Positions 9,107-19,347 of a stretch of DNA of 64,000 nucleotides are shown one piece after another. Under the pieces are notes generated by a model. It saw only the letters and a list, made by a program, of their open reading frames with translations, did no database searches and was not told the origin of the DNA. The stretch comes from a virus: the IMG/VR virus record IMGVR_UViG_3300013125_000002; one strand, 5' to 3'. Both the position numbers and the translations under genes were made by a program. Position 1 is the first letter of the stretch. Each line of letters begins with the position of its first letter.

Positions 9107-9160
9107 CAGTTCAACTGAGACTCGGGTTTCCGTTCAAGGTTGTTCTCTGCCCCTACTATC

Positions 9161-9581: not shown

Positions 9582-9673
9582 TCGTCACCCCGATGATTTG
9601 GTTACAGTCTCAAAATCATCGGAGAGAGTCAAGCTGATCTTGTAGAGGGAGGATTCTAGAACTTATGAAAAAA

Positions 9674-9754: not shown

Positions 9755-9978
9755 AAACCCTGAAGCCTTTCAGCCCACTGCTCCATAGCTCGCATCGCTA
9801 ATTGCAGATCAGTGAACTGGGCGTCGAGGGTCAATGTCCACTCGGGGTGCTTGACGATCCCCCGATACTTGATCCCGTCTCCGTACCAAGGTTGCACAAA
9901 AAGAGTCAGAGTAGCAACCCTAGCAATCCATGGTAGCTGGCCAACACCAGTAGGTTGCTGCCAGTCCAGCTTGGCCAC
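9721..9978 (-). CDS. Hypothetical protein (C-terminus overlaps tRNA-Ser)
   Basis: ATG overlaps HNH stop. Confidence 0.45.
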   Translation of the reverse strand: MAKLDWQQPTGVGQLPWIARVATLTLFVQPWYGDGIKYRGIVKHPEWTLTLDAQFTDLQLAMRAMEQWAERLQGLEGAAMVAKPA

Positions 9979-10487
9979 TATGGCACCAACTCAGCGGTCC
10001 AGTACTCTCGCCACTCGACAGGAATCGAGTCCACCTCCCGCAGAGCCACATTGAAGACAGGAACCCATGTCGGTCTCACAGGCTGTGCCCGAAGGGTCAT
10101 TCCTGCCTCACGAAGAGTCAGGTCAGCCTTCTTGTGGTTGCAGCTCTGGCAAGCCATGACGATGTTCTCCCACTCGGTCTTGCCACCCCGAGACTTCGGG
10201 ATGACGTGATCGAAGGTCAGAACTACATCCTTGCCATGGGCTCCACAGTACTGGCAGCGGAACCTATCCCGGGCGAGGACATTCTGACGAGAGAACTTGA
10301 TCCTCTTCTTCTTGGCGTCGATGGCATGCGTGATCCTCACAACCGCCGGCATGCCGACGTTGAAGTGAACCTCACGCCCGTACTCCTCGAGCACCTCTAC
10401 CTTGTTCTTGGCAAGGTAGGCCATCGCCCGTTGCCAGGGCACAGTGTTGATCGGCTGGTACCCCTGATCTAAGACTAAGGTTTGCAC
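9978..10487 (-). CDS. HNH endonuclease (HNH_5/McrA-like family)
   Basis: TLVLDQGYQP...FSRQNVLARDRFRCQYCG...LTFDHVIPKSRGG..WENIVMACQSCNHKK; likely GTG start 10487 (track start lies inside a tRNA). Confidence 0.9.
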   Translation of the reverse strand: MQTLVLDQGYQPINTVPWQRAMAYLAKNKVEVLEEYGREVHFNVGMPAVVRITHAIDAKKKRIKFSRQNVLARDRFRCQYCGAHGKDVVLTFDHVIPKSRGGKTEWENIVMACQSCNHKKADLTLREAGMTLRAQPVRPTWVPVFNVALREVDSIPVEWREYWTAELVP

Positions 10488-10529
10488 GAGATCACCTGTG
10501 AACAGTTGGTCATGGTCGATTGTACCAGA

Positions 10530-10604
10530 TAGAGCGGGTCGGATTCGAACCGACACTGTCCGGAGTTTGAAGCCGGGGCCTCCTACCCGTTGGGCTACCG
10601 CTCC
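10530..10604 (-). tRNA. tRNA-Leu(CAA), short variable loop
   Basis: Cloverleaf; loop UUCAAAC. Confidence 0.8.
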
Positions 10605-10608
10605 ATAA

Positions 10609-10684
10609 TACCAGGGATGGGATTCGAACCCACACTGCCGAGATCCTTAGTCTCGTGCCTCCTACCAAGTTGGGCTACCCTGGC
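10609..10684 (-). tRNA. tRNA-Leu(AAG), short variable loop
   Basis: CGAGA-CUAAGGA-UCUCG. Confidence 0.85.
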
Positions 10685-10688
10685 ATAG

Positions 10689-10762
10689 TCGGGATGACTG
10701 GATTTGAACCAGTGACCTCTTGGACCCCATCCAAGCGTTCTTCCAGGCTGAACTACATCCCG
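10689..10762 (-). tRNA. tRNA-Pro(GGG)
   Basis: CUUGG-AUGGGGU-CCAAG. Confidence 0.9.
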
Positions 10763-10766
10763 TTAG

Positions 10767-10840
10767 TACCCCCGACGCGGCTCGAACGCGCACTTGATCT
10801 CCTTTTAGGGGAGAGCCTCTTCCTCTTGGGCTACAGGGGT
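10767..10840 (-). tRNA. tRNA-Leu(UAA), C33, short variable loop
   Basis: UCUCC-CCUAAAA-GGAGA. Confidence 0.75.
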
Positions 10841-10846
10841 AGAAAC

Positions 10847-10878
10847 TCCCACCTCTGCCAGCGATAACAGAGGTGGGA
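10847..10878 (-). terminator. 11-bp hairpin after Ro60 (terminator/processing site) carrying GUUAUC
   Basis: TCCCACCTCTG/CAGAGGTGGGA inverted repeat. Confidence 0.5.
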
Positions 10879-10885
10879 TCAGAAC

Positions 10886-12538
10886 TTACTGCTTGGCGAA
10901 TTCGCTGATCAGGTTAGGTGCTGCTGTGTCAAACCCGACCACATCCAGCATCCCTGCGTCATCAGGATCAGCAATCGTGAAGTTGTTGGCTACCATCCCC
11001 ACGACTACAAGCTTGGCTGGAATGCCCATCTTCTGCCGATATTGCTGAAGAGCCTGCACCGGCTGAATCTCCCCAGCCCACGTCTCCGAGTCAGTGTAGA
11101 TCTCGAAGAGGTCAACTGGGATCTTGTGCTTTGCTGCATCCAACATTGGCAGCGCACAATCAGTACCACCGAATGACAGCCTCTCCGTGTACCGACAGAT
11201 GTCGTCGAGCCTCATCGTGGGGCTGATCTTCAGCGTCGTGATTGCATTACCTTCGTACCCAAGGCCATGCAATGATGCTCTGCCGCTGGTGAAGCCCTTG
11301 ATCACCCACTGCTGCTCCACCCGTGCCCTCACCATCGCCATTGCTGACGAAGCTACTCGAGGTGTCAGTCCCATAACTCCTGCCACCATCCCACCACCCA
11401 TCGACCCCGAGACATCGAGTGCCAGGTAATGACGCTTGCCAGTCGGCTCCACAGCCCAGAAGGACACGTAGAACGACTCGTTGAGAGCGTCAACTACCTG
11501 CTGGACCAGGTCCCAGGTATTGCTGCCCCGAAGCCCATGACCCGCCGAGTAGGTCAGCATCGCTGTCAGCACCTGGATCGGATGCACCCTTGCCTTCTTG
11601 AGCTGCTCCAGATCGACCAGTCGCTTCGCCACCTCACCAACTGCTAATGCCATTGGCTTGAGCAGCCCAACCCGCGTCATGGTAGCCAGGTTCCGCAGAA
11701 GAGCCGTCAGCCCCAGGCTAGGAAGCATCGCCTCCCAGACCTCGGCGTGATTCAGCATCTCCGTTGGAATCGCTTCCCGAGGCAACCGGTAGTCCTGGAT
11801 CAGCTTGACCATCTCCTTGACGCTGGTGATGGTCTTGGCCTTCTCGAACGCCCAGATGACTCGAGCTGCCTCCGGCACTGCACCAACCTCTGGTAGGTCG
11901 TTCTCCTTGCCCTTGACCATCCAGCGGACGACCGTCTGGTGGTCTGAAGAGCCTGGCTTGACGTGTGCCAGCCTAAGCACGTCTCGATGTGACCAGCCAT
12001 CACGGGCCTGGTACTTGACCGTCTGGTACGCCACATCCTTCGCCTGTTGCTCGTTGTACCAGCGAGCAATCGCCCGACGGGCTCCTGGACCCCAGCCACC
12101 GAAGGCCTGCATCGCCTCGCAAAAGTGGAAGAGGTGTGTTCCGATCCGGCAGACCTTCGGCAGAGCCTGGTAGGCTGCTTGCTTGGTCTCGACATTCCCA
12201 AGCTTGGCTGCCATCGCCAATGCAAAGATCGCCGGATCGTTCTTCGGTGCTCTTCCTGCATCGGAGATGTCAGTGATCAACTTGACCAGGCGAACGCCAT
12301 CAGCCTTGATGCACCGCTCGATGGCCTTGGCGTTCTCCTTGGTGAGCTTACGCTCGGTGGCATAGTAGCTCCCACCCTCACTCCCGAGGATCAGGAACCG
12401 CTGTGCCTGCACCCAGATGTCGACTGGGAAAGTGACTCCCCCTGCCGAGTTCTCCACCATGTCGTTCTCACGACCTGGGATCACCTCGTTCTGCGGAGTC
12501 TGCCGACGGTTGACGTGGGACGAGTACTGAACGGGCAT
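10886..12538 (-). CDS. rsr: Ro60/TROVE-domain RNA-binding protein (Rsr)
   Basis: NSAGG..F...RFLILGSEGGSYY, GRAPKNDPAIFALA, KYQARDGWSHRDVLRLAH, ALLRNL, vWA DVSGSM, GGTDCALPM, TDSET, DVVGFD. Confidence 0.96.
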   Translation of the reverse strand: MPVQYSSHVNRRQTPQNEVIPGRENDMVENSAGGVTFPVDIWVQAQRFLILGSEGGSYYATERKLTKENAKAIERCIKADGVRLVKLITDISDAGRAPKNDPAIFALAMAAKLGNVETKQAAYQALPKVCRIGTHLFHFCEAMQAFGGWGPGARRAIARWYNEQQAKDVAYQTVKYQARDGWSHRDVLRLAHVKPGSSDHQTVVRWMVKGKENDLPEVGAVPEAARVIWAFEKAKTITSVKEMVKLIQDYRLPREAIPTEMLNHAEVWEAMLPSLGLTALLRNLATMTRVGLLKPMALAVGEVAKRLVDLEQLKKARVHPIQVLTAMLTYSAGHGLRGSNTWDLVQQVVDALNESFYVSFWAVEPTGKRHYLALDVSGSMGGGMVAGVMGLTPRVASSAMAMVRARVEQQWVIKGFTSGRASLHGLGYEGNAITTLKISPTMRLDDICRYTERLSFGGTDCALPMLDAAKHKIPVDLFEIYTDSETWAGEIQPVQALQQYRQKMGIPAKLVVVGMVANNFTIADPDDAGMLDVVGFDTAAPNLISEFAKQ

Positions 12539-12578
12539 GTGACCCCTCCTTACCGGCCCTCACTAAGAGAGCAAAAAT

Positions 12579-12643
12579 GATGAGCAAGTTGTTGCCGCTA
12601 GGGTGGCTTCACCAAAGAGGTAACCTAGAAGCTCCGGCCCATC
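12579..12643 (-). ncRNA. Y RNA-like RNA 1 (minimal), directly upstream of Ro60
   Basis: GAUGGGCCGG...GUUACC...CUUGCUCAUC Ro-binding-type stem. Confidence 0.7.
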
Positions 12644-12656
12644 GGTTCATCAGAAC

Positions 12657-12754
12657 AGCTAGCGCCTCAGCGAGGTTGGTGATCCTTGGAGTGCCTTTCG
12701 GCCATATCTCAGCATTGGTAGATAACCAAAGATCATTCGGCCAAGGAGCTAGCT
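12657..12754 (-). ncRNA. Y RNA-like RNA 2
   Basis: UUGGCCGAAUGAUCUUUGGUUAUC...CCAAGGAUCA...CUCGCUGAGG; GAAA hairpin. Confidence 0.7.
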
Positions 12755-12773
12755 ATTCCGATGAAGTAATCCT

Positions 12774-12803
12774 CATATGTTCACAGTACGTCAGACTTGT
12801 CAA
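12774..12803 (-). promoter_or_regulatory. Possible internal sigma70 promoter for Y RNAs and Ro60
   Basis: Perfect TTGACA at 12798-12803, weak -10. Confidence 0.35.
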
Positions 12804-12811
12804 CCACAAAG

Positions 12812-12885
12812 TGGCAGCAGCTGGTAACGATCCAGCAATCTTTCGGTTATGAGCCGAATGAGGAGACCATCTCCTCCCTGCTGCC
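12812..12885 (-). tRNA. tRNA(CAU), atypical (no U8, T-loop AUCGUUA)
   Basis: UUCGG-CUCAUAA-CCGAA; all four stems pair. Confidence 0.7.
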
Positions 12886-12890
12886 ATGGG

Positions 12891-12969
12891 TGCGAGGAGA
12901 GGGAATCGAACCCTCACGCCGAAGCGATAGCTCCTAAGGCTACTGCGTCTACCATTCCGCCATCCTCGC
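12891..12969 (-). tRNA. tRNA-Leu(UAG)
   Basis: Class II cloverleaf. Confidence 0.92.
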
Positions 12970-12970
12970 A

Positions 12971-13048
12971 TGGTACCCCCGGCAGGACTTGAACCTGCAA
13001 GTCTCTCGGTTCGTAGCCGAGTGTCCTAATCCATTAGACGACGGGGGC
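12971..13048 (-). tRNA. tRNA-Arg(ACG), CCA encoded
   Basis: CUCGG-CUACGAA-CCGAG. Confidence 0.92.
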
Positions 13049-13063
13049 GTAGGTAGTAGGCGG

Positions 13064-13135
13064 TTGGCCCAGTCGGATTTGAACCGACGACTCCCAGCTT
13101 GTAAGGCTAGTACTCTTCCACTGAGTTATGGGCCA
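13064..13135 (-). tRNA. tRNA-Val(UAC), replacement copy
   Basis: CUAGC-CUUACAA-GCUGG; UGGCCCA/UGGGCCA acceptor. Confidence 0.88.
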
Positions 13136-13511
13136 AAACACACTTCTGCATTCTGTACCTAGCAACTTCTAATCGATGAGCTTCAGTGCATCGCACGCAA
13201 CGGCATGGTGCGGTTTCACTGCGGTATCTGGTGTCAGTCCCATGTGGGGAAAGACGCTGTAGTCGAGTAGCCTCTTTGTGACACTCCCCACACAACACCA
13301 CACACTTCTTCAACTCCAACTCCCGTCGTTGTTTGGACCAAGACCAAATTCGGTGAGACACTTTCTTGGTCGGGTCTTTGTGATGCACCTCTAGTTGATC
13401 CTCTGATCCGCACCCAACACATGGACCATGCTCTTTAATCCATGCATTACGGTTTTCTGACTTCCATCGGAGTTGGTATTGTTTACGTTCCTCTGGATCT
13501 TTGTAAGGCAT
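13107..13511 (-). CDS. HNH homing endonuclease inserted in tRNA-Val
   Basis: MPYKDP...CVGCG...LEVHHKDP...ELKKCVVLCGECH...HGT..RY...CRC..C; ATG in anticodon stem of the split tRNA. Confidence 0.88.
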   Translation of the reverse strand: MPYKDPEERKQYQLRWKSENRNAWIKEHGPCVGCGSEDQLEVHHKDPTKKVSHRIWSWSKQRRELELKKCVVLCGECHKEATRLQRLSPHGTDTRYRSETAPCRCVRCTEAHRLEVARYRMQKCVLAHNSVEEY

Positions 13512-13538
13512 GCGCTCTTCCAGTTGAGCTAACCGCCC
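13501..13538 (-). pseudogene. 5' half of original tRNA-Val(UAC), split by the HNH insertion
   Basis: GGGCGGU UA GCUC AACUGGAA GAGC G CAUGC CUUACAA; matching acceptor strand ACCGCCU at 13058-13064. Confidence 0.8.
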
Positions 13539-13705
13539 ACAGGACAATCCTGCTGCACGAGTGAAGGCTTGATCTCAACCTTCACACGCTGATGGAGAGT
13601 GAGCTTCTGGCACTTGCCCAGACACTTCAGGGGTACCTGATCCTTGTCGCTCCATCGCTCCCATCTCTGTACATTCCCACACTTCGTACACCTGAACTCT
13701 TCCAT
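13529..13705 (-). CDS. 58-aa zinc-ribbon protein, weakly bL33-like
   Basis: AAGGAGAGG RBS; MEEFRCTKCGNVQRWERWSDKDQVPLKCLGKCQKLTLHQRVK...; below track cutoff. Confidence 0.55.
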   Translation of the reverse strand: MEEFRCTKCGNVQRWERWSDKDQVPLKCLGKCQKLTLHQRVKVEIKPSLVQQDCPVGG

Positions 13706-13720
13706 GATCCTCTCCTTGAG

Positions 13721-13794
13721 TGGTCGTGATAGGATTTGAACCTATGACCTTCTGGGTGTGATCCAGATGTGCTTCCAGGCTACACCACACGACC
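13721..13794 (-). tRNA. tRNA-Val(CAC)
   Basis: UCUGG-AUCACAC-CCAGA. Confidence 0.88.
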
Positions 13795-13799
13795 GATAG

Positions 13800-13872
13800 T
13801 GCTGCTGGGAGGAATTGAACCTCCGTGTGCCGATTCCGGAGACCGGTGCGTTGTCCACTACGCTACAGCAGC
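13800..13872 (-). tRNA. tRNA-Arg(CCG)
   Basis: Loop CUCCGGA. Confidence 0.85.
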
Positions 13873-13876
13873 TCAA

Positions 13877-13948
13877 TACCCCGACCCAGAATCGAACTGG
13901 GACTTGCGGTTTAGGAAACCGCCGTGATCTCCATTTCACTATCGGGGC
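13877..13948 (-). tRNA. tRNA-Arg(CCU)
   Basis: GCGGU-UUCCUAA-ACCGC. Confidence 0.88.
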
Positions 13949-13949
13949 A

Positions 13950-14021
13950 CACCACCGGAAGGAATCGAACCCTCGTCTTCCGGGTAGAAACCGGAGGCCC
14001 TGTCCATTAGACGACGGTGGC
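13950..14021 (-). tRNA. tRNA-Arg(UCU)
   Basis: UCCGG-UUUCUAC-CCGGA. Confidence 0.88.
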
Positions 14022-14026
14022 ACTAG

Positions 14027-14094
14027 AGGCGCCGGAGCGAGTTGAACGCTCCTCCACGGTTTTGCAGACCGTGTTGCTCCCGGAACGCAGCGCC
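14027..14094 (-). tRNA. tRNA-Cys(GCA), truncated D arm (68 nt)
   Basis: ACGGU-CUGCAAA-ACCGU; U73. Confidence 0.75.
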
Positions 14095-14098
14095 ATAC

Positions 14099-14169
14099 AG
14101 CTGGGCAAGGGATGATCTTAGGCATTGGTCAGATTAGAAGTCTGGTAACCTATGATCTTCGGCTCAGCT
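14099..14169 (-). ncRNA. Y RNA-like RNA 3 with Arg(UCU)-like anticodon hairpin
   Basis: AGCUGAGCCGAAGAUCAUAGGUUA-CCAGACUUCUAAUCUGA-...CCUAAGAUC..CUUGCCCAGCU. Confidence 0.78.
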
Positions 14170-14172
14170 CGG

Positions 14173-14240
14173 CAGGTCACCGGAGACTCGAACTCCGCAA
14201 GCTGGGTTTTGGAGACCCGGCCGTACCCTGTACGTGACCC
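14173..14240 (-). tRNA. tRNA-Trp(CCA), truncated D arm (68 nt)
   Basis: Loop CUCCAAA; D arm GUAC-AGG-GUAC; G73. Confidence 0.75.
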
Positions 14241-14387
14241 ACGATGACCTCTGATCGCACCCACTCAACGCTGCCCCTGCACCTCGGGAATACAGATGAG
14301 AAAGTAACGATCAACCGGTGTGCTCTGGCCGAGGTCTCCGCCAGCCGGTAGAGGCGCGGATGTCATGCCTGACTCGCCTTCCTCTAG

Positions 14388-14460
14388 AGCCGCCACCGAG
14401 AATCGAACTCGGCCTTTCAGTTTACCAAACTGATGTCCCGACCACGTGGACCTTGGCGGC
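14388..14460 (-). tRNA. tRNA-Thr(GGU)
   Basis: UCAGU-UUGGUAA-ACUGA. Confidence 0.88.
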
Positions 14461-14467
14461 AAAACTT

Positions 14468-14540
14468 TGGAGCCAGCGAGGATCGAACTCGCAACCTCTG
14501 CCGTGCAAAGGCAGCGCTCTCCCAATTGAGCTATGACCCC
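14468..14540 (-). tRNA. tRNA-Ala(UGC)
   Basis: G3:U70; CUGCC-UUUGCAC-GGCAG. Confidence 0.92.
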
Positions 14541-14547
14541 GAGTCAG

Positions 14548-14649
14548 TGGAATGGCCAGGAGTTGAACCCAGCTCCCCTTAGGCAGCTCCTGCAAGCCAC
14601 CCATCAGGGATCGCGCCAAGTGGTGCAGGCCACCCTCTCGCGACACCCC
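14548..14649 (-). ncRNA. tRNA-like RNA with T arm and acceptor but no canonical anticodon arm
   Basis: GGGGUG...CUGGG-UUCAACU-CCUGG-CCAUUCCA; internal repeat GGGUGGC(C/U)UGCA. Confidence 0.5.
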
Positions 14650-14656
14650 ATAACAG

Positions 14657-14728
14657 TGGGCACTACTGGAATCGAACCAGTGGTCTCCTGCGTGTCGAGC
14701 AGGTGTCTTTCCATTCGACCAAGCGCCC
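14657..14728 (-). tRNA. tRNA-Val(GAC), C33
   Basis: CCUGC-UCGACAC-GCAGG. Confidence 0.85.
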
Positions 14729-14731
14729 ATT

Positions 14732-14804
14732 TACTCCCAACGGGGTTCGAACCCGTGATCTCCGGCTTGAAAGGCCAGCGACTTGACCGCTCGTCCATGG
14801 GAGC
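14732..14804 (-). tRNA. tRNA-Glu(UUC)
   Basis: Loop CUUUCAA. Confidence 0.88.
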
Positions 14805-14808
14805 ATAG

Positions 14809-14880
14809 TGATCCTGGAGGGAGTCGAACCCTCATTTCCTGATCGAGAGTCAGGTTGCCTACCGTTAGCAAGACAGGACC
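14809..14880 (-). tRNA. tRNA-Glu(CUC)
   Basis: CCUGA-CUCUCGA-UCAGG. Confidence 0.85.
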
Positions 14881-14881
14881 A

Positions 14882-14957
14882 TGGAGCTGGCTATCGGACT
14901 TGAACCGATCACCTGCTGCTTACAAGGCAGCTGCTCTACCGGATGGGCTAAGCCAGC
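14882..14957 (-). tRNA. tRNA-Thr(UGU), CCA encoded
   Basis: Loop CUUGUAA. Confidence 0.92.
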
Positions 14958-14962
14958 ACGAG

Positions 14963-15034
14963 AGCCCTCATTCGGAATCGAACCGAATTCTCGGCCTTAC
15001 GAGAGCCGCGCGTCACCATTTACGCTTTGAGGGC
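14963..15034 (-). tRNA. tRNA-Thr(CGU)
   Basis: Loop CUCGUAA. Confidence 0.85.
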
Positions 15035-15069
15035 ATGACTCACCAACTTTGACCCCTTCGTTGGTGATC

Positions 15070-15150
15070 GCGCAGCCTTTACCAGTCTAGCCTTTCGGCA
15101 GCAAGCCGGACGAATCCGACACGATCTTGAGATCATCAGGGGCCCTGCGC
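15070..15150 (-). ncRNA. Unclassified multibranch small RNA in tRNA spacer
   Basis: GCGCAG/CUGCGC closing stem with UUCG and GAAA tetraloop hairpins. Confidence 0.5.
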
Positions 15151-15152
15151 AG

Positions 15153-15227
15153 TACCACCGAGAGGATTTGAACCTCCAACCTCCTCGACCTGAACGAGGC
15201 GCCTCTACCAAATTGGGCTACGGTGGC
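15153..15227 (-). tRNA. tRNA-Leu(CAG), short variable loop
   Basis: CCUCG-UUCAGGU-CGAGG. Confidence 0.85.
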
Positions 15228-15233
15228 ATGTAG

Positions 15234-15307
15234 TCGAGGTGGTCAGATTCGAACTGACGTGCTCCTGCTCCCGAAGCAGGCGAGGGACCAGACTCCTCTA
15301 CACCTCG
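15234..15307 (-). tRNA. tRNA-Pro(CGG)
   Basis: CCUGC-UUCGGGA-GCAGG. Confidence 0.9.
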
Positions 15308-15312
15308 ATAAG

Positions 15313-15384
15313 AGCGAGTGGAGGGAATTGAACCCTCGACCAACTGGTTGGAAGCCAGTGACTCTGCCACTGAGTTACACTCGC
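15313..15384 (-). tRNA. tRNA-Gly(UCC)
   Basis: ACUGG-CUUCCAA-CCAGU. Confidence 0.92.
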
Positions 15385-15393
15385 AAAGATCAA

Positions 15394-15465
15394 AGTGACC
15401 GGAGGGAGTTGAACCCTCTCTTCAGGCTTGGGAAGCCCGCGTGCCTCCGTGAACACCCCGGTCAC
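15394..15465 (-). tRNA. tRNA-Gly(CCC)
   Basis: Loop UUCCCAA. Confidence 0.85.
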
Positions 15466-15471
15466 AAGTTA

Positions 15472-15558
15472 GGGCCGCCAACGATGAGGACTGGACTGAT
15501 CTTTCAGTGAGTCGACGGCACTGATTGACCAGGGTTGATCTCATCATTGGCTAAGCCC
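15472..15558 (-). ncRNA. Unclassified rod-like small RNA in tRNA spacer
   Basis: GCCAAUGAUGAG/CUCAUCGUUGGC stem, internal bubble, UCAGUG/CACUGA apex. Confidence 0.5.
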
Positions 15559-15560
15559 AG

Positions 15561-15644
15561 CGGAGAGCCTGGGAATCGAACCCAGCGGGTCTTTCGGCCC
15601 TCCCGCGCTTCCAACGCGGTTGCGCACCTTGCTTCTCGCTCTCC
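15561..15644 (-). tRNA. tRNA-Ser(GGA), atypical D arm
   Basis: CCGCG-UUGGAAG-CGCGG; V arm GGCCGAAAGACC. Confidence 0.8.
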
Positions 15645-15652
15645 AAGATCAG

Positions 15653-15734
15653 CGGAAGGTGCAGGAATCGAACCTGCTGCGTCTTTCGGCGCTGATGGCT
15701 TCAAACCACTCCCGTACCTTACGGGTCACCTTCC
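15653..15734 (-). tRNA. tRNA-Ser(UGA), 6-bp D stem
   Basis: D arm CCCGUA-AGG-UACGGG; loop UUUGAAG. Confidence 0.8.
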
Positions 15735-15805
15735 AGCTAACCGATCTCCTCTGAGTCACAAAGAGTGTAGTCCTTGCGATTGACCATACTCAGCGAGATC
15801 GGCAA

Positions 15806-15877
15806 TGCAGCTGCCGGGAGTTGAACCCGGGCCTCAACCTTGGCAAGGTCGCATGCGGCCACCAACACTTCAGCTGC
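15806..15877 (-). tRNA. tRNA-Gly(GCC)
   Basis: Loop UUGCCAA. Confidence 0.82.
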
Positions 15878-15879
15878 GT

Positions 15880-15949
15880 AGCGGGAAAAGGAGTTGAACC
15901 TTGTCCTCTGGGTTATGAACCCAGCGTGCAGCCACTACACTATTCCCGC
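15880..15949 (-). tRNA. tRNA(CAU) Met/Ile2
   Basis: CUGGG-UUCAUAA-CCCAG (3 G-C pairs, initiator-like). Confidence 0.8.
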
Positions 15950-15951
15950 AG

Positions 15952-16023
15952 CGGGCACGAAGGGGATCGAACCCTCCTCGGCGGATCGACAGTCCGCTGG
16001 CCTCACCAGATGCCTACGTGCCC
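15952..16023 (-). tRNA. tRNA-Asp(GUC)
   Basis: GCGGA-CUGUCGA-UCCGC; G73. Confidence 0.85.
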
Positions 16024-16088
16024 ATTCACCGGCTTGTTCTGGGCTTAATAAGATGATCCCGGCAAACCGGCCAATCCAAGATCATCAG

Positions 16089-16170
16089 CGGAAGCTAGAC
16101 GAATCGAACGCCCGGTCTTTCGGCCGCCCTCGGGTTCGAGCCGAGTTAGGGACCCTCCCTGGTAGCTTCC
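16089..16170 (-). tRNA. tRNA-Ser(CGA), atypical D arm
   Basis: CUCGG-CUCGAAC-CCGAG; long V arm; G73. Confidence 0.8.
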
Positions 16171-16175
16171 AGAGC

Positions 16176-16274
16176 GCCGCCGCTTCATCGTCAAGGTCCT
16201 TGTCCAAGTTGATCAGACTCTTCCTCAGACCTCTTGGCCTTCAAAGGGCCGCGTTGGTCACGAATGAAGCAGCG
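16176..16274 (-). ncRNA. Unclassified structured RNA in tRNA spacer
   Basis: CGCUGCUUCAU/AUGAAGCGGCG closing stem. Confidence 0.45.
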
Positions 16275-16276
16275 AG

Positions 16277-16347
16277 TGGACCCACTGGGATTTGAACCCA
16301 GAATACAGCCATGCCGAGGCTGCGTGATCCCATTTCACTATGAGCCC
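16277..16347 (-). tRNA. tRNA-Ala(GGC), C33
   Basis: G3:U70; CAGCC-UCGGCAU-GGCUG. Confidence 0.85.
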
Positions 16348-16420
16348 GAGATGCTCCCCGCTTAGACTCACCTGCGCTGCTTTTGCCCGCTTCGGTAAAT
16401 CTGCGCTAGAGCAATGAGAT

Positions 16421-16549
16421 GAGTGAGCAAGGGGGAGAGTTGGATGTTTTAGTGTCCTTCCATTAGACGACAGAACCCGTGGGTCCCGCTGGGACTCGAA
16501 CCCAGATCACTCGCTTAGCAGGCGATAACCCAACTCAATCGGCCCACTC
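16421..16549 (-). ncRNA. YrlA-like Y RNA 4 with circularly permuted tRNA domain and GCU anticodon hairpin
   Basis: GAGUGGGCCGA..GUUA-UCGC-CUGCUAA-GCGA, T arm, closed acceptor, D arm, ..CUUGCUCACUC. Confidence 0.85.
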
Positions 16550-16551
16550 GG

Positions 16552-16623
16552 TGGAGTCGGAGGGAGTCGAACCCTCACCTCAGCGTTGCGAACGCCGCGT
16601 GCTCCCGCTAGCACTACGACCCC
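16552..16623 (-). tRNA. tRNA-Ala(CGC)
   Basis: G3:U70; loop UUCGCAA. Confidence 0.88.
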
Positions 16624-16630
16624 AAAAGAT

Positions 16631-16770
16631 CGAAGCAGGCAAGGGGTTGACCTGAGCGTTGAGATTGGATTCGAACCAACGTCTCCGGGTTTATTGGACC
16701 CGGCGCTCTACCTCTAAGCTACTCCTGTAGGGTTTGGCACAGGATAACTCAGATCATTCGGCTTGCTTCG
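16631..16770 (-). ncRNA. Y RNA-like RNA 5 with non-permuted D/anticodon/T tRNA module
   Basis: CGAAGCAAGCCGAA..GUUAUC..UAGCUUAGAGGUAGAGC-CCGGGUCCAAUAAACCCGG-GUUGGUUCGAAUCCAAU..CUUGCCUGCUUCG. Confidence 0.8.
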
Positions 16771-16771
16771 G

Positions 16772-16844
16772 GGCGGGGGAGGGGAGTCGAACCCCCTAAT
16801 GCCAGGGCCACAACCTGGTGCTTAGCCGTTTAGCTTCCCTCGCC
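16772..16844 (-). tRNA. tRNA-His(GUG) with G-1
   Basis: CCAGG-UUGUGGC-CCUGG; C73. Confidence 0.88.
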
Positions 16845-16849
16845 ATGAG

Positions 16850-16920
16850 TCGCTGGAGACAGAGTCGAACTGTCGTTTACCGGTTATCGGCCGATCGTTC
16901 TTCCGTTGAACTACCCAGCG
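16850..16920 (-). tRNA. tRNA-Ile(GAU), C33
   Basis: AUCGG-CCGAUAA-CCGGU. Confidence 0.82.
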
Positions 16921-16928
16921 ATCTTTAG

Positions 16929-16999
16929 CTCCGAGACCGGGATTCGAACCCAGAAGTCGTGGTTAACAGCCACGCATGATTCCATTTCATCATCTCGGA
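16929..16999 (-). tRNA. tRNA-Asn(GUU)
   Basis: CGUGG-CUGUUAA-CCACG. Confidence 0.88.
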
Positions 17000-17014
17000 A
17001 TGATCCTACACTAG

Positions 17015-17088
17015 CGAGTCGGACAGGATTTGAACCTGTGTCAGGTGGGTTAACGGCCCACTGCTCAACCAGACTGAGCTACCGACCC
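17015..17088 (-). tRNA. tRNA-Asn(GUU), second copy, C33
   Basis: GUGGG-CCGUUAA-CCCAC. Confidence 0.85.
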
Positions 17089-17091
17089 ATG

Positions 17092-17190
17092 CGATGGGCA
17101 AAGAATGATGCTGGTGCCTCCATAGGCGATGCCCCATAGATTGGGGCATTCTGGAATCGAACCGGATAATCCAACACCAACGGCTCATCG
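17092..17190 (-). ncRNA. YrlA-like Y RNA 6 (T arm, closed acceptor, D arm)
   Basis: CGAUGAGCCGUUGGUGUUGGAUUAUCCGGUUCGAUUCCAG-AUGCCCC/GGGGCAU-GCCUAUGGAGGC-CCAGCAUCA..UUUGCCCAUCG. Confidence 0.82.
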
Positions 17191-17193
17191 TAG

Positions 17194-17267
17194 TCGGGGA
17201 GACAGGATTTGAACCTGCGGCATCTAGCTCCCAAAGCTAGCGTTCTACCAGGCTGAACTACTCCCCG
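17194..17267 (-). tRNA. tRNA-Pro(UGG)
   Basis: CUAGC-UUUGGGA-GCUAG. Confidence 0.92.
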
Positions 17268-17289
17268 ATTTGCCCAAGTGAGCTTTACG

Positions 17290-17506
17290 TCGTGCATCTA
17301 CTCTAATCAGTGGATCTCAAGATGCAGCATGGGGTGATGTCTGGAGCTAGCACGACTTGCCGCCAGATCATGAGTCCCACCTAAGTCCTGAGTCACTGGA
17401 TCGGCCTTGGGCATCCGATCTCGACTCCGTGGTTGCGGAGTCTTCACTGAGCATCAACAGCCGGCCTTACCCTACCCTACCGGAGGTGTACCGGATCAGT
17501 TGATGC
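17290..17506 (-). ncRNA. Unclassified ~215-nt structured RNA (serial hairpins)
   Basis: TGCATCT/AGATGCA, GATCGG/CCGATC, GACTCCG/CGGAGTC, GCATCAAC/GTTGATGC inverted repeats. Confidence 0.45.
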
Positions 17507-17508
17507 AG

Positions 17509-17582
17509 ATCCCCCAGTTGGATTCGAACCAACGACCTTCGGGTTCAAAGCCCGACGCTACCGCCAGCTGAGCTATGGGGGA
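17509..17582 (-). tRNA. tRNA-Gln(UUG)
   Basis: U1-A72; loop CUUUGAA. Confidence 0.88.
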
Positions 17583-17587
17583 AGAAG

Positions 17588-17660
17588 TGGAGCGAAGTGG
17601 AGTCGAACCACTGTATCGGCATTTTCAGTGCCGCGCCTTGTCCGCATCGGCCATCGCTCC
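17588..17660 (-). tRNA. tRNA-Phe(GAA)
   Basis: CGGCA-CUGAAAA-UGCCG. Confidence 0.88.
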
Positions 17661-17665
17661 ATGTG

Positions 17666-17736
17666 TGGACCCGGAGTGAATCGAACACTCACCCACCGGT
17701 TATGAGCCAGCTGCTCGACCTTCGAGCTACGGGTCC
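17666..17736 (-). tRNA. tRNA(CAU) Ile2/Met
   Basis: Loop CUCAUAA. Confidence 0.85.
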
Positions 17737-17751
17737 ATCGACCATGATCAA

Positions 17752-17771
17752 CTATTCAGTTGTCAAGATCA
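17752..17771 (-). promoter_or_regulatory. boxA-like antitermination element (GATCTTGACAACTGAATAG)
   Basis: Resembles rrn/tRNA-operon boxA, located early in a long untranslated operon. Confidence 0.5.
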
Positions 17772-17834
17772 GCGAAGCACTGAGAAACGGTCTCAGCTCC
17801 CATCAGCAGGCAGCCTACTGATGCTTCCTTCTAG

Positions 17835-17906
17835 TTCCGGGACAAGGGTTCGAACCTTGATTGGCGGAGTCAGAGTCCGCTGTCCTGCCAATTGAACGAC
17901 CCCGGA
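17835..17906 (-). tRNA. tRNA-Gln(CUG)
   Basis: GCGGA-CUCUGAC-UCCGC. Confidence 0.9.
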
Positions 17907-18065
17907 TCAATGAATCAAATACCTCCAACCTCGACGTTGACTTTTACTCCAACGTCTCTTCCACCACCAGCGTTTTCTTGGTCCCCTTCCATGCACCTGA
18001 CCACAGTTGGAACAGCCACCTCTGAGAATGAACCGCATCCAACTTCGGTCAGGATCAGCCATCAG

Positions 18066-18137
18066 TGGGCTCGGACGGATTCGAACCGTCACCTCATCGG
18101 GTAAGAGCCGAGAATGCAGCCGTAACACCTCGAGCCC
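18066..18137 (-). tRNA. tRNA-Lys(CUU)
   Basis: Loop CUCUUAC. Confidence 0.85.
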
Positions 18138-18173
18138 AGTACTTCCACGCCTGGATCAGTTCCTCAAGCATCG

Positions 18174-18249
18174 TGGTGCCTCCGGCAGGACTCGAACCTG
18201 CGTCTCGATGGGTAAAAGCCATGTGCGCTGGCCGCTGCGCCACGGAGGC
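18174..18249 (-). tRNA. tRNA-Lys(UUU), CCA encoded
   Basis: Loop CUUUUAC. Confidence 0.88.
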
Positions 18250-18302
18250 AATAGCTCTCGAACCAACCGGTGCATTTGAGCTTGTGCATGATCTTGCCTC
18301 CG

Positions 18303-18374
18303 TGGGTGGTCTAGGAGTCGAACCTAGATTTGCGGGGTTACGGCCCGGTGCTCTACCAGTTGAACTAACCACCC
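18303..18374 (-). tRNA. tRNA-Tyr(GUA), C33, short variable loop; first tRNA of operon
   Basis: CGGG-CCGUAAC-CCCG. Confidence 0.8.
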
Positions 18375-18375
18375 C

Positions 18376-18411
18376 AAATGCGAAAAGGCCGCCAGGTTTC
18401 CCAGGCGGCCT
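18376..18411 (-). terminator. Intrinsic terminator/attenuator ahead of the tRNA operon
   Basis: AGGCCGCCUGG-GAAA-CCUGGCGGCCU followed by UUUCGCAUUU. Confidence 0.8.
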
Positions 18412-18438
18412 CTCGAGTTCTACTCTGCTTCCTCTCGA

Positions 18439-18591
18439 TTAGCCGCCTGGCGCTCCATGCTCGAGAGGATTCGGGTACTGCTTGGTACCCAGATCCACCG
18501 AGCTGACGGGGCGCGCACTAAACGCACACGTCCCGCGCCAGCTCTGAATGGCTGCCCTGGACAATGTGCGTTTGGCGGCTTCGCGTCTCAT
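18439..18591 (-). CDS. Attenuator leader peptide, 50 aa, all 20 amino acids, 40 distinct codons
   Basis: MRREAAKRTLSRAAIQSWRGTCAFSARPVSSVDLGTKQYPNPLEHGAPGG*; last codons CCAGGCGGC complementary to terminator 5' arm. Confidence 0.72.
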   Translation of the reverse strand: MRREAAKRTLSRAAIQSWRGTCAFSARPVSSVDLGTKQYPNPLEHGAPGG

Positions 18592-18599
18592 GATTCTTC

Positions 18600-18629
18600 A
18601 CTTGTGAACCATGTGGTCGCGTTTGTCAA
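18600..18629 (-). promoter_or_regulatory. Sigma70-like promoter of the leader/tRNA operon
   Basis: TTGACA at 18624-18629, weak -10; ATG about 9 nt past -10 (near-leaderless). Confidence 0.55.
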
Positions 18630-18946
18630 TCCCCTTTTTTGAACTTTCCGTTTGACTTGATCTTCGTAGTCGGGAGCGTCTGGTACAGCCCCAGCCGTAG
18701 GTAGCTCCAGCCCCGGCTATCACACACCCGACGAACACTGGAATGGCCCGCGGTCGCGAACCCTGCACACGGACGGGCTCGAACGACGTGAGCGAGAACG
18801 TGTATGCCGGGTGGCGTAGCGCCTCGCGCTTGGTTGCAAACCGTGCGGCGTCGGCAACGTTCTGGGTACAGCGCGGCCCGATACCCGTCCACTCTCTGAA
18901 GTAGCCGCTCCGCGGACATTTGAGAACCCAGTTCCGCTTGGTCATC

Positions 18947-19345
18947 TTACGCCTCCCTTTCCAGATCAGTCGGCTCTACACGCTGAGGCAGGACCGGCGA
19001 GATGAACAGACCCAGCGCGTTGCGTCGGCCATGCTCGGTCTCGTTGGCCTTGCTACGCTTCTGGATCTGGAAGTCCACCGGCAGACCTGAATGCTGCGAG
19101 AGGTAGAGTGAGATCGACGAGCACATGACCGACCACAGGGCGTTGTGCTGCTGGTGGCAGTCGGGGAAGAGCCGGTCGTACTCCTCGTCATCAAGGATCG
19201 CACGCACGTCCACATCACGGTAGTCGCGGCGCTCGAGGCAGGACCCCACGAGGAACACGCCGCCATTGAACGCCTGCGCGATCACACAGCACGCCTGATT
19301 CAGATTGAAGAAGTGTGGGGCTGGCAGCCAGTTTGCGCGTTCCAT
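18947..19345 (-). CDS. Minimal nucleotidyltransferase (Pol-beta superfamily)
   Basis: VFLVGS...RDYRDVDVR...PVDFQ = GS-xn-DxD...D. Confidence 0.7.
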   Translation of the reverse strand: MERANWLPAPHFFNLNQACCVIAQAFNGGVFLVGSCLERRDYRDVDVRAILDDEEYDRLFPDCHQQHNALWSVMCSSISLYLSQHSGLPVDFQIQKRSKANETEHGRRNALGLFISPVLPQRVEPTDLEREA

Positions 19346-19347
19346 GC

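What the first reader, a model, noticed from the sequence alone, without database searches (positions are those of the whole stretch)
12579..17190. Family of six modular Y RNAs sharing a Ro-binding stem and GUUAYC motif but carrying different effector domains
Seen: RNAs at 12579, 12657, 14099, 16421, 16631 and 17092 all have 5' GCCG(A/G/U) opposite 3' Y-U-Y-G-C, similar to the bulged-C GUCCGA/CUUGAC Ro60 site of Y RNAs. Each then has an 8-9-bp helix followed by (G/A)UUA(U/C)C. Apical domains differ: minimal, GNRA hairpins, anticodon hairpin, permuted tRNA, non-permuted tRNA. Inference: one Ro60 with interchangeable RNA adaptors that tether different partners or act as decoys.
Basis: partly seen in the sequence, partly recalled or inferred. 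Interest (0 to 1): 0.8.

Follow-up and report, generated by a model that had tools for sequence, protein, structure and literature searches.

The report
Six phage Y RNAs among tRNAs
An uncultured phage carries, inside its 45-gene tRNA operon and just ahead of its Ro60 gene, six small RNA genes that share one conserved Ro60-docking stem but display six different tips, a larger and more varied Y-RNA set than the papers I could read describe for any phage or bacterium.

Summary
Six Y-RNA-like genes lie on the minus strand in non-tRNA gaps of a 45-tRNA array. They sit 39 nt to 4.6 kb upstream of a canonical Ro60/Rsr gene (10886-12538). All six share a basal stem, GCCG(A/G/U), a bulged C, an 8-9-bp helix and (G/A)UUAYC.

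A covariance model built from short forms finds exactly these six here (19-68 bits; next hit 7 bits). It finds 38 more in relatives, all on the Ro60 strand, with strong covariation.

The two motifs are not new. GCCGA is the published GNCGAA(N0-1)G Ro-site motif, and UUAY is the published YUAY of YrlA RNAs.

New relative to the papers I could read:
- the copy number
- the snug insertion between tRNA genes
- a helix in which both strands covary
- six different effector tips on one handle, including two different permutations of a tRNA body

Related metagenomic phages carry 2-6 such RNAs, and Gordonia phage Sixama and mycobacteriophage I3 carry at least 2-3, all unannotated.

Different partners for different tips is inference only. 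Expression and Ro60 binding are untested.

Earlier notes of this scan report similar multi-RNA sets beside Ro60-like genes on other phage DNA.

The parts
10886..12538 (-). Ro60/Rsr gene (550 aa), the presumed protein partner
   Evidence: Pfam TROVE 4.7e-42 and vWA_Ro60 1.8e-58. Full-length phmmer matches to 2NVO Rsr (3e-124) and 1YVP Xenopus Ro60 (6e-120).
12578..12644 (-). Y RNA #1, minimal (YrlB-like). GCCGG, 8-bp helix, GUUACC, then a short hairpin UACC/GGUG. It ends 39 nt before the Ro60 start codon.
   Evidence: Model R1 68.3 bits. MFE fold z -2.0. Apical sequence nearly the same as L001:9870-9936.
12657..12760 (-). Y RNA #2. Core 12664-12747 with an extra outer 7-bp stem. GCCGAAUG, 9-bp helix, GUUAUC, then a 5-bp hairpin and a GAAA-tetraloop hairpin. 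The 3' partner is CUCGC, so the G10 pair is G-C.
   Evidence: R1 40.6 bits. MFE fold z -3.5. GAAA hairpin plus CACUC is shared with L002:9868-9962.
14099..14169 (-). Y RNA #3. GCCGAAG, helix, GUUACC, then a single hairpin with the 7-nt loop CUUCUAA. It fills the gap between tRNA-Trp and tRNA-Cys, with 1 and 4 nt to spare.
   Evidence: R1 53.6 bits. The MFE fold gives the bulged C exactly, z -3.4. tRNA coordinates.
16421..16549 (-). Y RNA #4, full YrlA type. V hairpin (loop CUGCUAA), T arm, acceptor-like hairpin and D arm. It starts directly after tRNA-Ala(cgc).
   Evidence: Rfam YrlA match over the full model, 21.9 bits against a gathering score of 69. R1 29 bits although not in the training set. 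Class alignment: 33 pairs, 22 with compensatory change.
16632..16769 (-). Y RNA #5. The same handle carries a tRNA body in native order (hairpin, D arm, closed anticodon-like arm, T arm). It starts directly after tRNA-His and ends 8 nt before tRNA-Ala.
   Evidence: RF00005 41.9 bits, model positions 5-66, at 16661-16724. R1 27 bits although not in the training set. Counterpart at L009:3654-3784. MFE z -4.1.
17092..17190 (-). Y RNA #6, reduced YrlA type. GCCGU, 9-bp helix, AUUAUC, a T arm with one C.A mismatch, a 7-bp acceptor-like hairpin and a mini D arm (loop AUGG). It fills the gap between tRNA-Pro and tRNA-Asn, with 2 and 3 nt to spare.
   Evidence: R1 19 bits, E 0.0065 in the 10-kb region, not in the training set. 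MFE z -2.9. Arms read from the sequence.
10528..18374 (-). 45-gene tRNA array that hosts the Y RNA genes and the Ro60 gene. It probably gives one precursor transcript.
   Evidence: ARAGORN finds 45 tRNAs, all on the minus strand. No sigma-70-like promoter and no minus-strand terminator-like site in 10400-19400.

Best explanation
The six elements are genuine Y RNAs of the YrlA/YrlB lineage that serve the phage's own Ro60.

Proposed sequence of events:
1. They are transcribed with the tRNAs as one long precursor.
2. RNase P and the tRNA 3'-end nuclease cut the neighbouring tRNAs. Four of the six fill their inter-tRNA gaps to within 0-8 nt, so those cuts release them.
3. The paired 5'/3' ends then protect each RNA.
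4. Each RNA presents the same docking site to the Ro60 ring: a helix with an invariant C:G pair, an invariant bulged C and a G:U or G:C pair. The site is followed by a 9-bp spacer helix and the UUAY junction.
5. The variable tip acts as the effector or gate module. The tips are a bare hairpin, a GAAA hairpin, an anticodon-loop-like hairpin, a YrlA-type permuted tRNA, a reduced version of it, and a tRNA body in native order with a sealed acceptor.

The tRNA-shaped tips would dock the particle on host tRNA-binding or RNA-decay proteins. The published examples are PNPase in Deinococcus, Salmonella and Thermus phage phiLo. The minimal tips would mainly occupy or gate Ro60.

Shown here: the sequence family, its structure, its conservation and its linkage to Ro60.

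Inferred: co-transcription, processing by tRNA enzymes, Ro60 binding, and different partners for different tips.
For: - Ro60 gene on the same strand, 39 nt downstream of #1.
- The published Ro-site motif GNCGAA(N0-1)G is matched exactly by #2, #3 and #5, and the published YUAY by all six (PMC4201824). The Rfam YrlA model aligns #4 end to end and places both motifs on its own.
- Model R1, trained on 10 short forms, recovers the three long window copies it never saw. It finds 44 matches in 292,615 bases, every one on the Ro60 strand and full length, plus 13 more in MAG contigs.
- Covariation: 86.1% of cells paired, against 61.3% shuffled and at most 45.3% slid. 15 of 18 pairs change on both sides. 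C:G and the bulged C are invariant in 44 of 44.
- The last Y RNA ends 37-77 nt before the Ro60 start codon in 10 of 13 contigs.
- Relatives without tRNA arrays (L002, L010, L011, L012) still have the RNAs next to Ro60.
- Paralogues in one genome share the Ro-site variant (permutation 0 of 2000), while module types recur across genomes.
- In L001, L002 and L009 promoter-like sites end 8-11 nt before a Y RNA's first base.
- The fit between tRNAs follows from the coordinates.
Against: - There are no expression, end-mapping or binding data.
- The Rfam YrlA score of #4 is far below the gathering score (21.9 against 69). The other five get no Rfam Y-RNA hit.
- #6 is weak in the model (19 bits).
- Alignment A2 was fitted to the model's structure, which favours pairing.
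- Shared Ro-site variants within a genome could reflect recent duplication or gene conversion rather than fit to one Ro60.
- No candidate partner (PNPase, RtcB, other exoribonuclease) is encoded in the window.
- The host is unknown.
Confidence: 0.8

Rival explanations
1. The stems act mainly in cis. #1 and #2 lie in the 5' leader of the Ro60 message. Ro60 would bind them there to control its own translation or the processing of its mRNA, rather than (or as well as) using them as free RNAs.
For: The last Y-like stem ends at a nearly fixed 37-77 nt before the Ro60 start codon in 10 of 13 contigs. No terminator lies between #1 and the gene. In L001, L002 and L009 a promoter-like site drives the Y RNA(s) and then Ro60.
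Against: #3 to #6 lie 1.6-4.6 kb upstream and are separated from Ro60 by many tRNAs. L009:3654-3784 and L028:7086-7150 lie downstream of Ro60. The published Y RNAs beside Ro60 genes are free RNAs (PMC4201824, PMC12135203). This rival does not exclude the main explanation.
Confidence: 0.12
2. They are Ro60-independent structured spacers of the tRNA operon. In this reading they serve as processing or insulation hairpins, or as tRNA-derived relics kept for correct precursor folding.
For: They sit between tRNAs. The array also holds other, unrelated structured spacers, such as 15466-15559, 15735-15805 and 16171-16275.
Against: The family follows Ro60, not tRNAs. It is present beside Ro60 in contigs with no tRNA array. 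It carries the published Ro-site and YUAY motifs. All 57 model matches are on the Ro60 strand. Relics would not keep 15 of 18 covarying pairs across phages whose Ro60 proteins are only 47-56% identical.
Confidence: 0.05
3. The tRNA-shaped and anticodon-loop-like tips are decoys or sensors for host tRNA-cleaving defence nucleases. Ro60 would serve only to stabilise them or to hand nicked RNAs to repair or decay.
For: The phage invests in 45 tRNAs of its own. V-hairpin loops have an anticodon-loop shape (C-U-N-N-N-A-A) in #3 and #4, and the loop of L002:9696 is the same as that of #4. In Salmonella the rsr-yrlBA-rtcBA operon is described as responding to damaged tRNAs (abstract of PMC7790460).
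Against: The closed 'anticodon' loop of the #5 class is not conserved: CCAAUAA here and CCAAA in L009. L001 has a real tRNA-Ser(GCU) and still keeps a loop with GCU at the anticodon position in its YrlA. No RNA ligase or repair gene is in the window.
Confidence: 0.08

Closest known systems
YrlA (Y RNA-like A; Rfam RF02553) of Salmonella, Mycobacterium smegmatis and mycobacteriophages (Chen et al. 2014, PMC4201824; structure in Wang et al. 2018, 10.1101/312249)
   Same: Encoded beside Ro60 on the same strand. A 5'/3' stem carries GNCGAA. YUAY opens the variable region. The tRNA-like module runs V, T, acceptor-like hairpin, D (#4, and #6 in reduced form). The Rfam model aligns #4 over its whole length.
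   Different: The score is far below Rfam's threshold (21.9 against 69 bits). Both strands of the Ro helix covary here, with an invariant bulged C, whereas Chen et al. say only the 5' strand is recognisable in the Salmonella and M. smegmatis RNAs. There are six paralogues rather than one YrlA plus one YrlB. They lie inside a tRNA array.
YrlB, the second, smaller Rsr-bound RNA of Salmonella and M. smegmatis (Chen et al. 2013, 2014)
   Same: It shares the GNCGAA motif and lacks the tRNA-like module, like #1, #2 and #3.
   Different: Chen et al. found YrlB homologues only within S. enterica by BLAST. Here the minimal forms clearly belong to one family with the YrlA-type forms: same handle, same UUAY.
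Deinococcus radiodurans Yrn1
   Same: Both strands of the Ro-binding helix are retained. The T and D arms lie in the opposite order to YrlA, with an anticodon-arm-like hairpin between them, as in #5.
   Different: Chen et al. took the opposite orientation as a sign of independent origin. Here both orientations sit on an identical handle in one genome. #5 has a complete D arm and a sealed acceptor-like hairpin. I had no Yrn1 sequence to compare directly.
Thermus phage phiLo Ro60 with Yrl1 and Yrl2 (PMC12135203)
   Same: Phage Ro60 with Y-like RNAs just upstream of the gene, and a CGAA motif in the stem. That paper shows Ro60 binding and complexes with host PNPase.
   Different: phiLo has two RNAs, not six. 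The paper mentions no tRNA array and no tRNA-like modules.
Vertebrate Y RNAs (own knowledge: human Y1, Y3, Y4, Y5)
   Same: Several paralogues share one Ro60 site with a bulged C (GGUCCGA is quoted in PMC4201824), and they differ in the distal loop that binds other proteins.
   Different: They are not sequence relatives detectable here: there is no RF00019 hit at E up to 5. They have no tRNA-like modules. They are separate polymerase III genes rather than part of a tRNA operon.

Membership tests
YrlA/YrlB-type bacterial and phage Y RNAs | Encoded near a Ro60/Rsr gene on the same strand (Chen 2014: best matches within 4 kb) | tested here: met
   All six are on the Ro60 strand. #1-#3 lie 39 nt to 1.6 kb upstream, and #4-#6 lie 3.9-4.6 kb upstream.
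YrlA/YrlB-type bacterial and phage Y RNAs | 5' and 3' ends pair into a long stem that holds the Ro60 site | tested here: met
   MFE folds. 10-pair outer helix 87.4% paired, with 7 pairs changing on both sides.
YrlA/YrlB-type bacterial and phage Y RNAs | GNCGAA(N0-1)G motif near the 5' end | tested here: met
   Exact in #2, #3 and #5 (GCCGAAUG, GCCGAAG, GCCGAAUG). Partial in #4 (GCCGAU), #6 (GCCGUU) and #1 (GCCGGA). C-C-G is invariant in 44 of 44.
YrlA/YrlB-type bacterial and phage Y RNAs | Conserved YUAY that begins the variable (V) region | tested here: met
   UUAU or UUAC in six of six. U26 and U27 are invariant, and A28 is present in 42 of 44. Aligned to the model's CUAc.
YrlA/YrlB-type bacterial and phage Y RNAs | tRNA-like module with T, acceptor-like and D arms (YrlA only) | tested here: met
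   #4 is complete and #6 is reduced. #1-#3 lack it (YrlB-like). #5 has the arms in another order.
YrlA/YrlB-type bacterial and phage Y RNAs | Reaches the Rfam RF02553 gathering score (69 bits) | tested here: not met
   #4 scores 21.9 bits. The other five have no RF02553 hit at E up to 5.
YrlA/YrlB-type bacterial and phage Y RNAs | Bound by Ro60/Rsr in cells | not testable with these tools
   Needs co-immunoprecipitation or gel shifts.
Metazoan/Deinococcus-type Y RNA (RF00019) | Two-stranded conserved helix with a bulged C as the Ro60 site | tested here: met
   First pair GC 24, AU 12, GU 6. C:G in 44 of 44. Bulged C in 44 of 44. Then G:U 23 and G:C 20.
Metazoan/Deinococcus-type Y RNA (RF00019) | Sequence/structure match to the Rfam Y_RNA model | tested here: not met
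   No RF00019 match at E up to 5 in 10000-19000.
tRNA (RF00005), considered for #5 | Complete cloverleaf with a free 7-bp acceptor stem and 3' end | tested here: not met
   The match covers model positions 5-66 only (41.9 bits). ARAGORN does not call it. The acceptor side is sealed by a hairpin and runs into the Ro stem, as read from the sequence.

The most novel reading that the evidence does not exclude
Phage tRNA operons double as production lines for a panel of Ro60 adaptors. Y RNA genes would behave as cassettes that slot between tRNAs, be cut out by the tRNA-processing enzymes, and keep one handle that co-evolves with the phage's Ro60. Their tips would be rebuilt from tRNA bodies opened at different points: at the anticodon stem in #4 and #6, and at the acceptor 3' strand in #5. 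Together they would aim one Ro60 ring at several host RNA-handling machines during infection, possibly to deal with tRNA damage inflicted by host defences.
Probability: 0.2. Interest if true: 0.8.

Novelty: new variant of a known kind. Interest (0 to 1): 0.6.

Why it matters
How Y RNAs choose partners for Ro60 is still largely open, and the partner of the YrlA tRNA-like module is unknown (10.1101/312249).

A single phage that keeps six RNAs with one docking handle and six different tips is a natural swap experiment. The same protein and the same handle allow each tip to be used as bait.

The set also places YrlA-like and Yrn1-like orientations of the tRNA module on one handle in one genome. 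That bears on the published inference that the two arose independently.

The tight fit between tRNA genes suggests a simple route of biogenesis that could be tested directly.

On the practical side, the model built here finds unannotated Y RNAs in cultured phages (Gordonia Sixama, mycobacteriophage I3). In I3 they lie where two small 'hypothetical protein' genes are annotated.

Tried and rejected
- Megablast of the locus against cultured phages gave only a tRNA-Pro match. No whole genome is held for this window.
- Rfam at gathering thresholds sees only tRNAs.
- Two reviews (PMC10870794, PMC6047535) and the supplement of Chen 2014 are not held. I could not check how many Y RNAs per phage were tabulated there.
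- A loose regex scan of cultured-phage loci was too noisy and was replaced by the covariance model.
- MAFFT slipped the 3' helix strand by one base in several rows, so covariation was counted on the Infernal alignment instead.
- For #1 I considered another register: ACCGA about 12 nt further 5' with the outer stem UGAUGA/UCAUCA, as in L001.
- I tested whether other spacer hairpins of the array (15466-15559, 15735-15805, 16024-16087) belong to the family or to each other. They do not.
- A search for partner enzymes in the window found none.
- Another first-reader note suggested that the loop with GCU at the anticodon position in #4 replaces a missing tRNA-Ser(GCU). L001 has that tRNA and still keeps such a loop, so I rejected the idea.

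Full report
WHAT IS THERE

The window is phage DNA. It encodes a large terminase, PolA, RecA, a gp32-like protein, SbcCD, ThyX and a NYN-domain protein. It is far from any cultured phage: the terminase is at most 32% identical and there is no megablast relative.

From 10528 to 18374 the minus strand carries 45 tRNA genes. The 550-codon ORF at 10886-12538 (minus) is embedded in this array. It is a canonical Ro60/Rsr:
- TROVE 4.7e-42 and Ro60-vWA 1.8e-58.
- End-to-end phmmer matches to D. radiodurans Rsr 2NVO (3e-124) and Xenopus Ro60 1YVP (6e-120).

The six RNAs of the finding lie in the non-tRNA gaps of the array, all on the minus strand.

CHECK OF THE OBSERVATION

- GCCG-N10-RTTAYC occurs five times, against 0.13 expected. 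The sixth copy has one more base in the spacer.
- A scanner that also asks for the 3' helix strand, YUYGY and a basal stem finds all six here and ten distinct ones in four related contigs. Shuffles give 0.4.
- Unconstrained folds of #1, #2, #3 and #6 give the shared geometry: basal stem, G-C, C-G, one bulged C, two more pairs, then an 8-9-bp helix. In #4 and #5 the outer stem and the apical arms appear, but part of the core is drawn differently. Z-scores are -1.9 to -4.1.

So the description is right. The points to correct are the strand, the number of GNRA loops (one) and the class of #6.

WHAT THE MOTIFS ARE

Chen et al. 2014 describe two short conserved elements in YrlA RNAs:
- GNCGAA(N0-1)G near the 5' end, which they relate to the GGUCCGA contacted by Xenopus Ro60.
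- A YUAY that begins the variable (V) region.

The Rfam YrlA model aligns #4 over all 114 positions. It puts GCCGA on its 'ggCgaA' and UUAU on its 'CUAc', followed by the T, acceptor-like and D arms. The score is only 21.9 bits against a gathering score of 69, and the other five get no Y-RNA hit. The family is therefore a divergent branch that current annotation misses.

COMPARATIVE EVIDENCE

Relatives of this Ro60 at 47-76% identity occur in one IMG/VR contig and 20 metagenome loci, one of which is that same contig again. Cultured actinophages and a Sinorhizobium jumbo phage carry relatives at about 44-47%.

L001 has a syntenic tRNA array.

I built covariance model R1 from ten short forms of five contigs. 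In 292,615 bases it finds 44 matches:
- All span the full model.
- All are on the Ro60 strand.
- They include #4, #5 and #6, which were not in the training set.

With filters off on 9500-19500 the six score 19-68 bits and the next hit scores 7 bits. Six is therefore the count in this window.

On the Infernal alignment:
- 86.1% of cells pair, against 61.3% after shuffling and at most 45.3% when partners are slid.
- 15 of 18 pairs change on both sides.
- At the Ro site the first pair covaries (GC 24, AU 12, GU 6).
- The next pair is C:G in 44 of 44.
- The following C is unpaired and invariant.
- Then comes G:U (23) or G:C (20).
- The alignment was fitted to the model, which favours pairing. The slid controls and the strand bias do not depend on that.

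Position relative to Ro60:
- The last Y RNA ends 37-77 nt before the Ro60 start codon in 10 of 13 contigs.
- Contigs without tRNA arrays (L002, L010, L011, L012) still have the RNAs next to Ro60. The linkage is therefore to Ro60, not to tRNAs.

ONE HANDLE, MANY TIPS

Within one genome the paralogues share the same variant of the Ro site:
- G:C at the first pair in six of six here.
- A:U in four of four in L001 and in L009.
- G:C at the G10 pair throughout the L003/L005/L007/L008 clade.
- GCCGAA...CACGC in three of three in Sixama.
- Permutation test: 0 of 2000.

The tip types recur across genomes:
- #1 resembles L001:9870-9936.
- #2 resembles L002:9868-9962 (GAAA hairpin followed by CACUC).
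- #4 resembles L001:7118-7250, L009:1665-1795, L005:9307-9432 and others. That alignment has 33 predicted pairs, 22 with compensatory change.
- #5 resembles L009:3654-3784, down to the hairpin loop GCCAA(A)CC(C)U.

Old tip classes combined with genome-specific handles are what one expects if all copies must fit one cognate Ro60. Gene conversion among paralogues is an alternative that I cannot exclude.

ANATOMY OF THE SIX

- #1: a minimal form with one short hairpin.
- #2: an extra outer 7-bp stem, a 5-bp hairpin and a GAAA-tetraloop hairpin. Its 3' partner CUCGC makes the G10 pair G-C.
- #3: a single V hairpin with the 7-nt loop CUUCUAA.
- #4: a complete YrlA. V hairpin with loop CUGCUAA, T arm CUGGG/UUCGAGU/CCCAG, acceptor-like hairpin and D arm.
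- #6: the same plan cut down. No V hairpin, a T arm with a C.A mismatch, a 7-bp acceptor-like hairpin and a D arm with the 4-nt loop AUGG.
- #5: different from the rest. After GUUAUC comes a hairpin, then U8-A9-like bases, a D arm, a closed anticodon-like arm, a 4-nt variable region and a T arm. This is native tRNA order (RF00005 41.9 bits, model 5-66).

My hand reading of #5 (inference) is that the 4-bp hairpin CUGU/ACAG stacks on the 3-bp GAG/CUC. That makes a sealed 7-bp acceptor-like arm, and the chain leaves for the Ro stem from the acceptor's 3' strand. On this reading #4 and #5 are two different circular permutations of a tRNA body on one handle.

The 'anticodon' loop of this class is not conserved (CCAAUAA here, CCAAA in L009). 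I therefore do not read it as decoding anything.

CONTEXT AND LIKELY BIOGENESIS

No sigma-70-like promoter and no minus-strand terminator-like site is found in 10400-19400. A single precursor is therefore likely.

Four of the six fit their gaps closely:
- #3 lies 1 nt after tRNA-Trp and 4 nt before tRNA-Cys.
- #6 lies 2 nt after tRNA-Pro and 3 nt before tRNA-Asn.
- #5 starts at the base after tRNA-His and ends 8 nt before tRNA-Ala.
- #4 starts at the base after tRNA-Ala(cgc).

The same fit is seen in relatives:
- L001:7118-7250 lies 1 and 4 nt from its flanking tRNAs.
- Sixama L022:9083-9157 also lies 1 and 4 nt from its flanking tRNAs.

Cutting the neighbours with RNase P and the 3'-end nuclease would therefore release the Y RNAs with their paired ends (inference).

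In relatives where the Ro60-proximal cluster is not preceded by tRNAs, promoter-like sites end 8-11 nt before the first Y RNA. This again points to defined 5' ends.

MECHANISM AND RIVALS

Best reading (0.8): Ro60-bound Y RNAs, made with the tRNAs, each docking through the bulged-C helix. The tips act as effector or gate modules, as in the published tether/gate model (10.1101/312249). PNPase complexes are documented for Deinococcus, Salmonella and phage phiLo (PMC4201824, PMC12135203).

I put the idea that different tips bind different partners at roughly even odds. Nothing here tests it, and no partner gene is in the window.

Rivals:
- A cis role of #1 and #2 in the Ro60 leader. This is compatible with the main reading.
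- Ro60-independent spacers. This is contradicted by the linkage to Ro60 in array-free contigs.
- Decoys for tRNA-cleaving defences. This is speculative.

COMPARISON AND NOVELTY

Already known:
- Phage Ro60 genes with YrlA RNAs (22 phages in Chen 2014).
- Two Yrl RNAs upstream of phiLo Ro60.
- Y RNA modularity.
- Both short motifs.

Not found in the papers I could search:
- Sets of up to six Y RNAs per phage.
- Their placement as units inside tRNA arrays.
- A two-stranded, covarying bulged-C helix combined with YrlA-type modules. Chen et al. state that only the 5' strand is recognisable in the Salmonella and M. smegmatis RNAs.
- YrlA-like and native-order tRNA modules on one handle in one genome. 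This bears on their inference that the two orientations arose independently.

The phenomenon is not unique to this phage:
- L005/L027 also have six copies.
- L001, L003, L008, L009 and L012 have four each.
- Sixama has at least three and mycobacteriophage I3 at least two to three, all unannotated.
- The two large cellular-looking contigs had one copy (L028) and none (L029).

Earlier notes of this scan report comparable multi-RNA sets beside Ro60-like genes in other phages. I did not test those.

Verdict: a new variant of a known kind, with interest 0.6.

Noticed in passing
L024:5541-5955 (Mycobacterium phage I3, NC_067270.1 129525-129939): Two model matches (5584-5656, 5860-5929) and a third GCCGA...GUUACC element at about 5680-5828 lie in tandem just upstream of the Ro-like gene. 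They fall inside two small CDS annotated as hypothetical proteins (gp124, gp123), so those calls may be Y RNA genes read as ORFs.
   Followed up: partly
L022:5681-5748, 8513-8586, 9083-9157 (Gordonia phage Sixama, MN484601.1): Unannotated Y-like RNAs: one upstream of the Ro-like gene and two between tRNA genes downstream of it. A fourth candidate (GCCGA...GUUAUC) starts at about 8871, between tRNA-Gln and tRNA-Ile.
   Followed up: partly
L001:6450-6528: A permuted tRNA-like element (T arm, acceptor-like hairpin with GCAA loop, D arm) closed by a plain 5-bp stem GCCGG/CCGGC, without the Ro handle. Rfam YrlA gives 39 bits for model positions 23-85 only. It sits between tRNA-Gly and tRNA-Ser.
   Followed up: no
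window 14251-14386, 14541-14655, 15035-15151, 15466-15559, 15735-15805, 16024-16087, 16171-16275, 16348-16420, 17268-17507, 17737-17833, 17907-18064 (minus strand): Eleven further non-tRNA spacers of the array. Most fold into long hairpins (for example a 12-bp perfect stem in 15466-15559). They do not match the Y model and are not alike among themselves. Function unknown.
   Followed up: partly
window 16495-16509 and 14125-14139 (minus); L002:9696-9760; L001:7118-7250: The V hairpins of several Y RNAs have 7-nt loops shaped like anticodon loops: CUGCUAA in #4 and in L002:9696, AUGCUAA in L001:7118, CUUCUAA in #3, CUGUUAA in L005:9307. The 3' UAA and the loop size are conserved across phages.
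   Followed up: partly
A2 columns 175-182; window 3' strands such as 12589-12598 (minus): The asymmetric internal loop on the 3' strand, between the helix and the Ro site, has a consensus AACAAC and is almost free of G. This motif is not mentioned in the papers read.
   Followed up: no
L009:3654-3784: In this relative the native-order tRNA-type Y RNA lies 10 nt downstream of the Ro60 match and 6 nt before tRNA-Glu, not upstream. Positions of the RNAs within arrays are not conserved between phages.
   Followed up: no
window 12797-12802 (minus), upstream of #2: A perfect TTGACA lies about 45 nt upstream of Y RNA #2, with only a poor -10 (ACATAT / CATATG) at 17-18 nt. The scan did not call it, but it could be a weak internal promoter for #2, #1 and Ro60.
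   Followed up: no
window 41218-41835 (minus): A NYN-domain protein (PF01936, 7e-24) lies next to a radical SAM/SPASM protein (40079-41227). It is a possible RNA nuclease, 29 kb from the Ro60 locus.
   Followed up: no
window 44798-46621 (minus): The ThyX (Thy1) gene carries a LAGLIDADG-like segment in its middle, which suggests an intein or an inserted homing endonuclease. HNH endonuclease ORFs also sit in the tRNA array region (9978-10556, and the 13136-13719 gap).
   Followed up: no
L025, L026, L027 (MAG contigs labelled Dormiibacterota, Anaerolineales, Chloroflexi): These binned contigs carry the same Ro60-plus-Y-RNA layout as the phage contigs. L027 (25 tRNAs, six Y RNAs) and L025 (19 tRNAs, three Y RNAs) also have the tRNA array; L026 has three tandem Y RNAs and a single tRNA. 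L027 is close to L005. They are probably phage contigs or prophages, which may hint at hosts for that clade.
   Followed up: no
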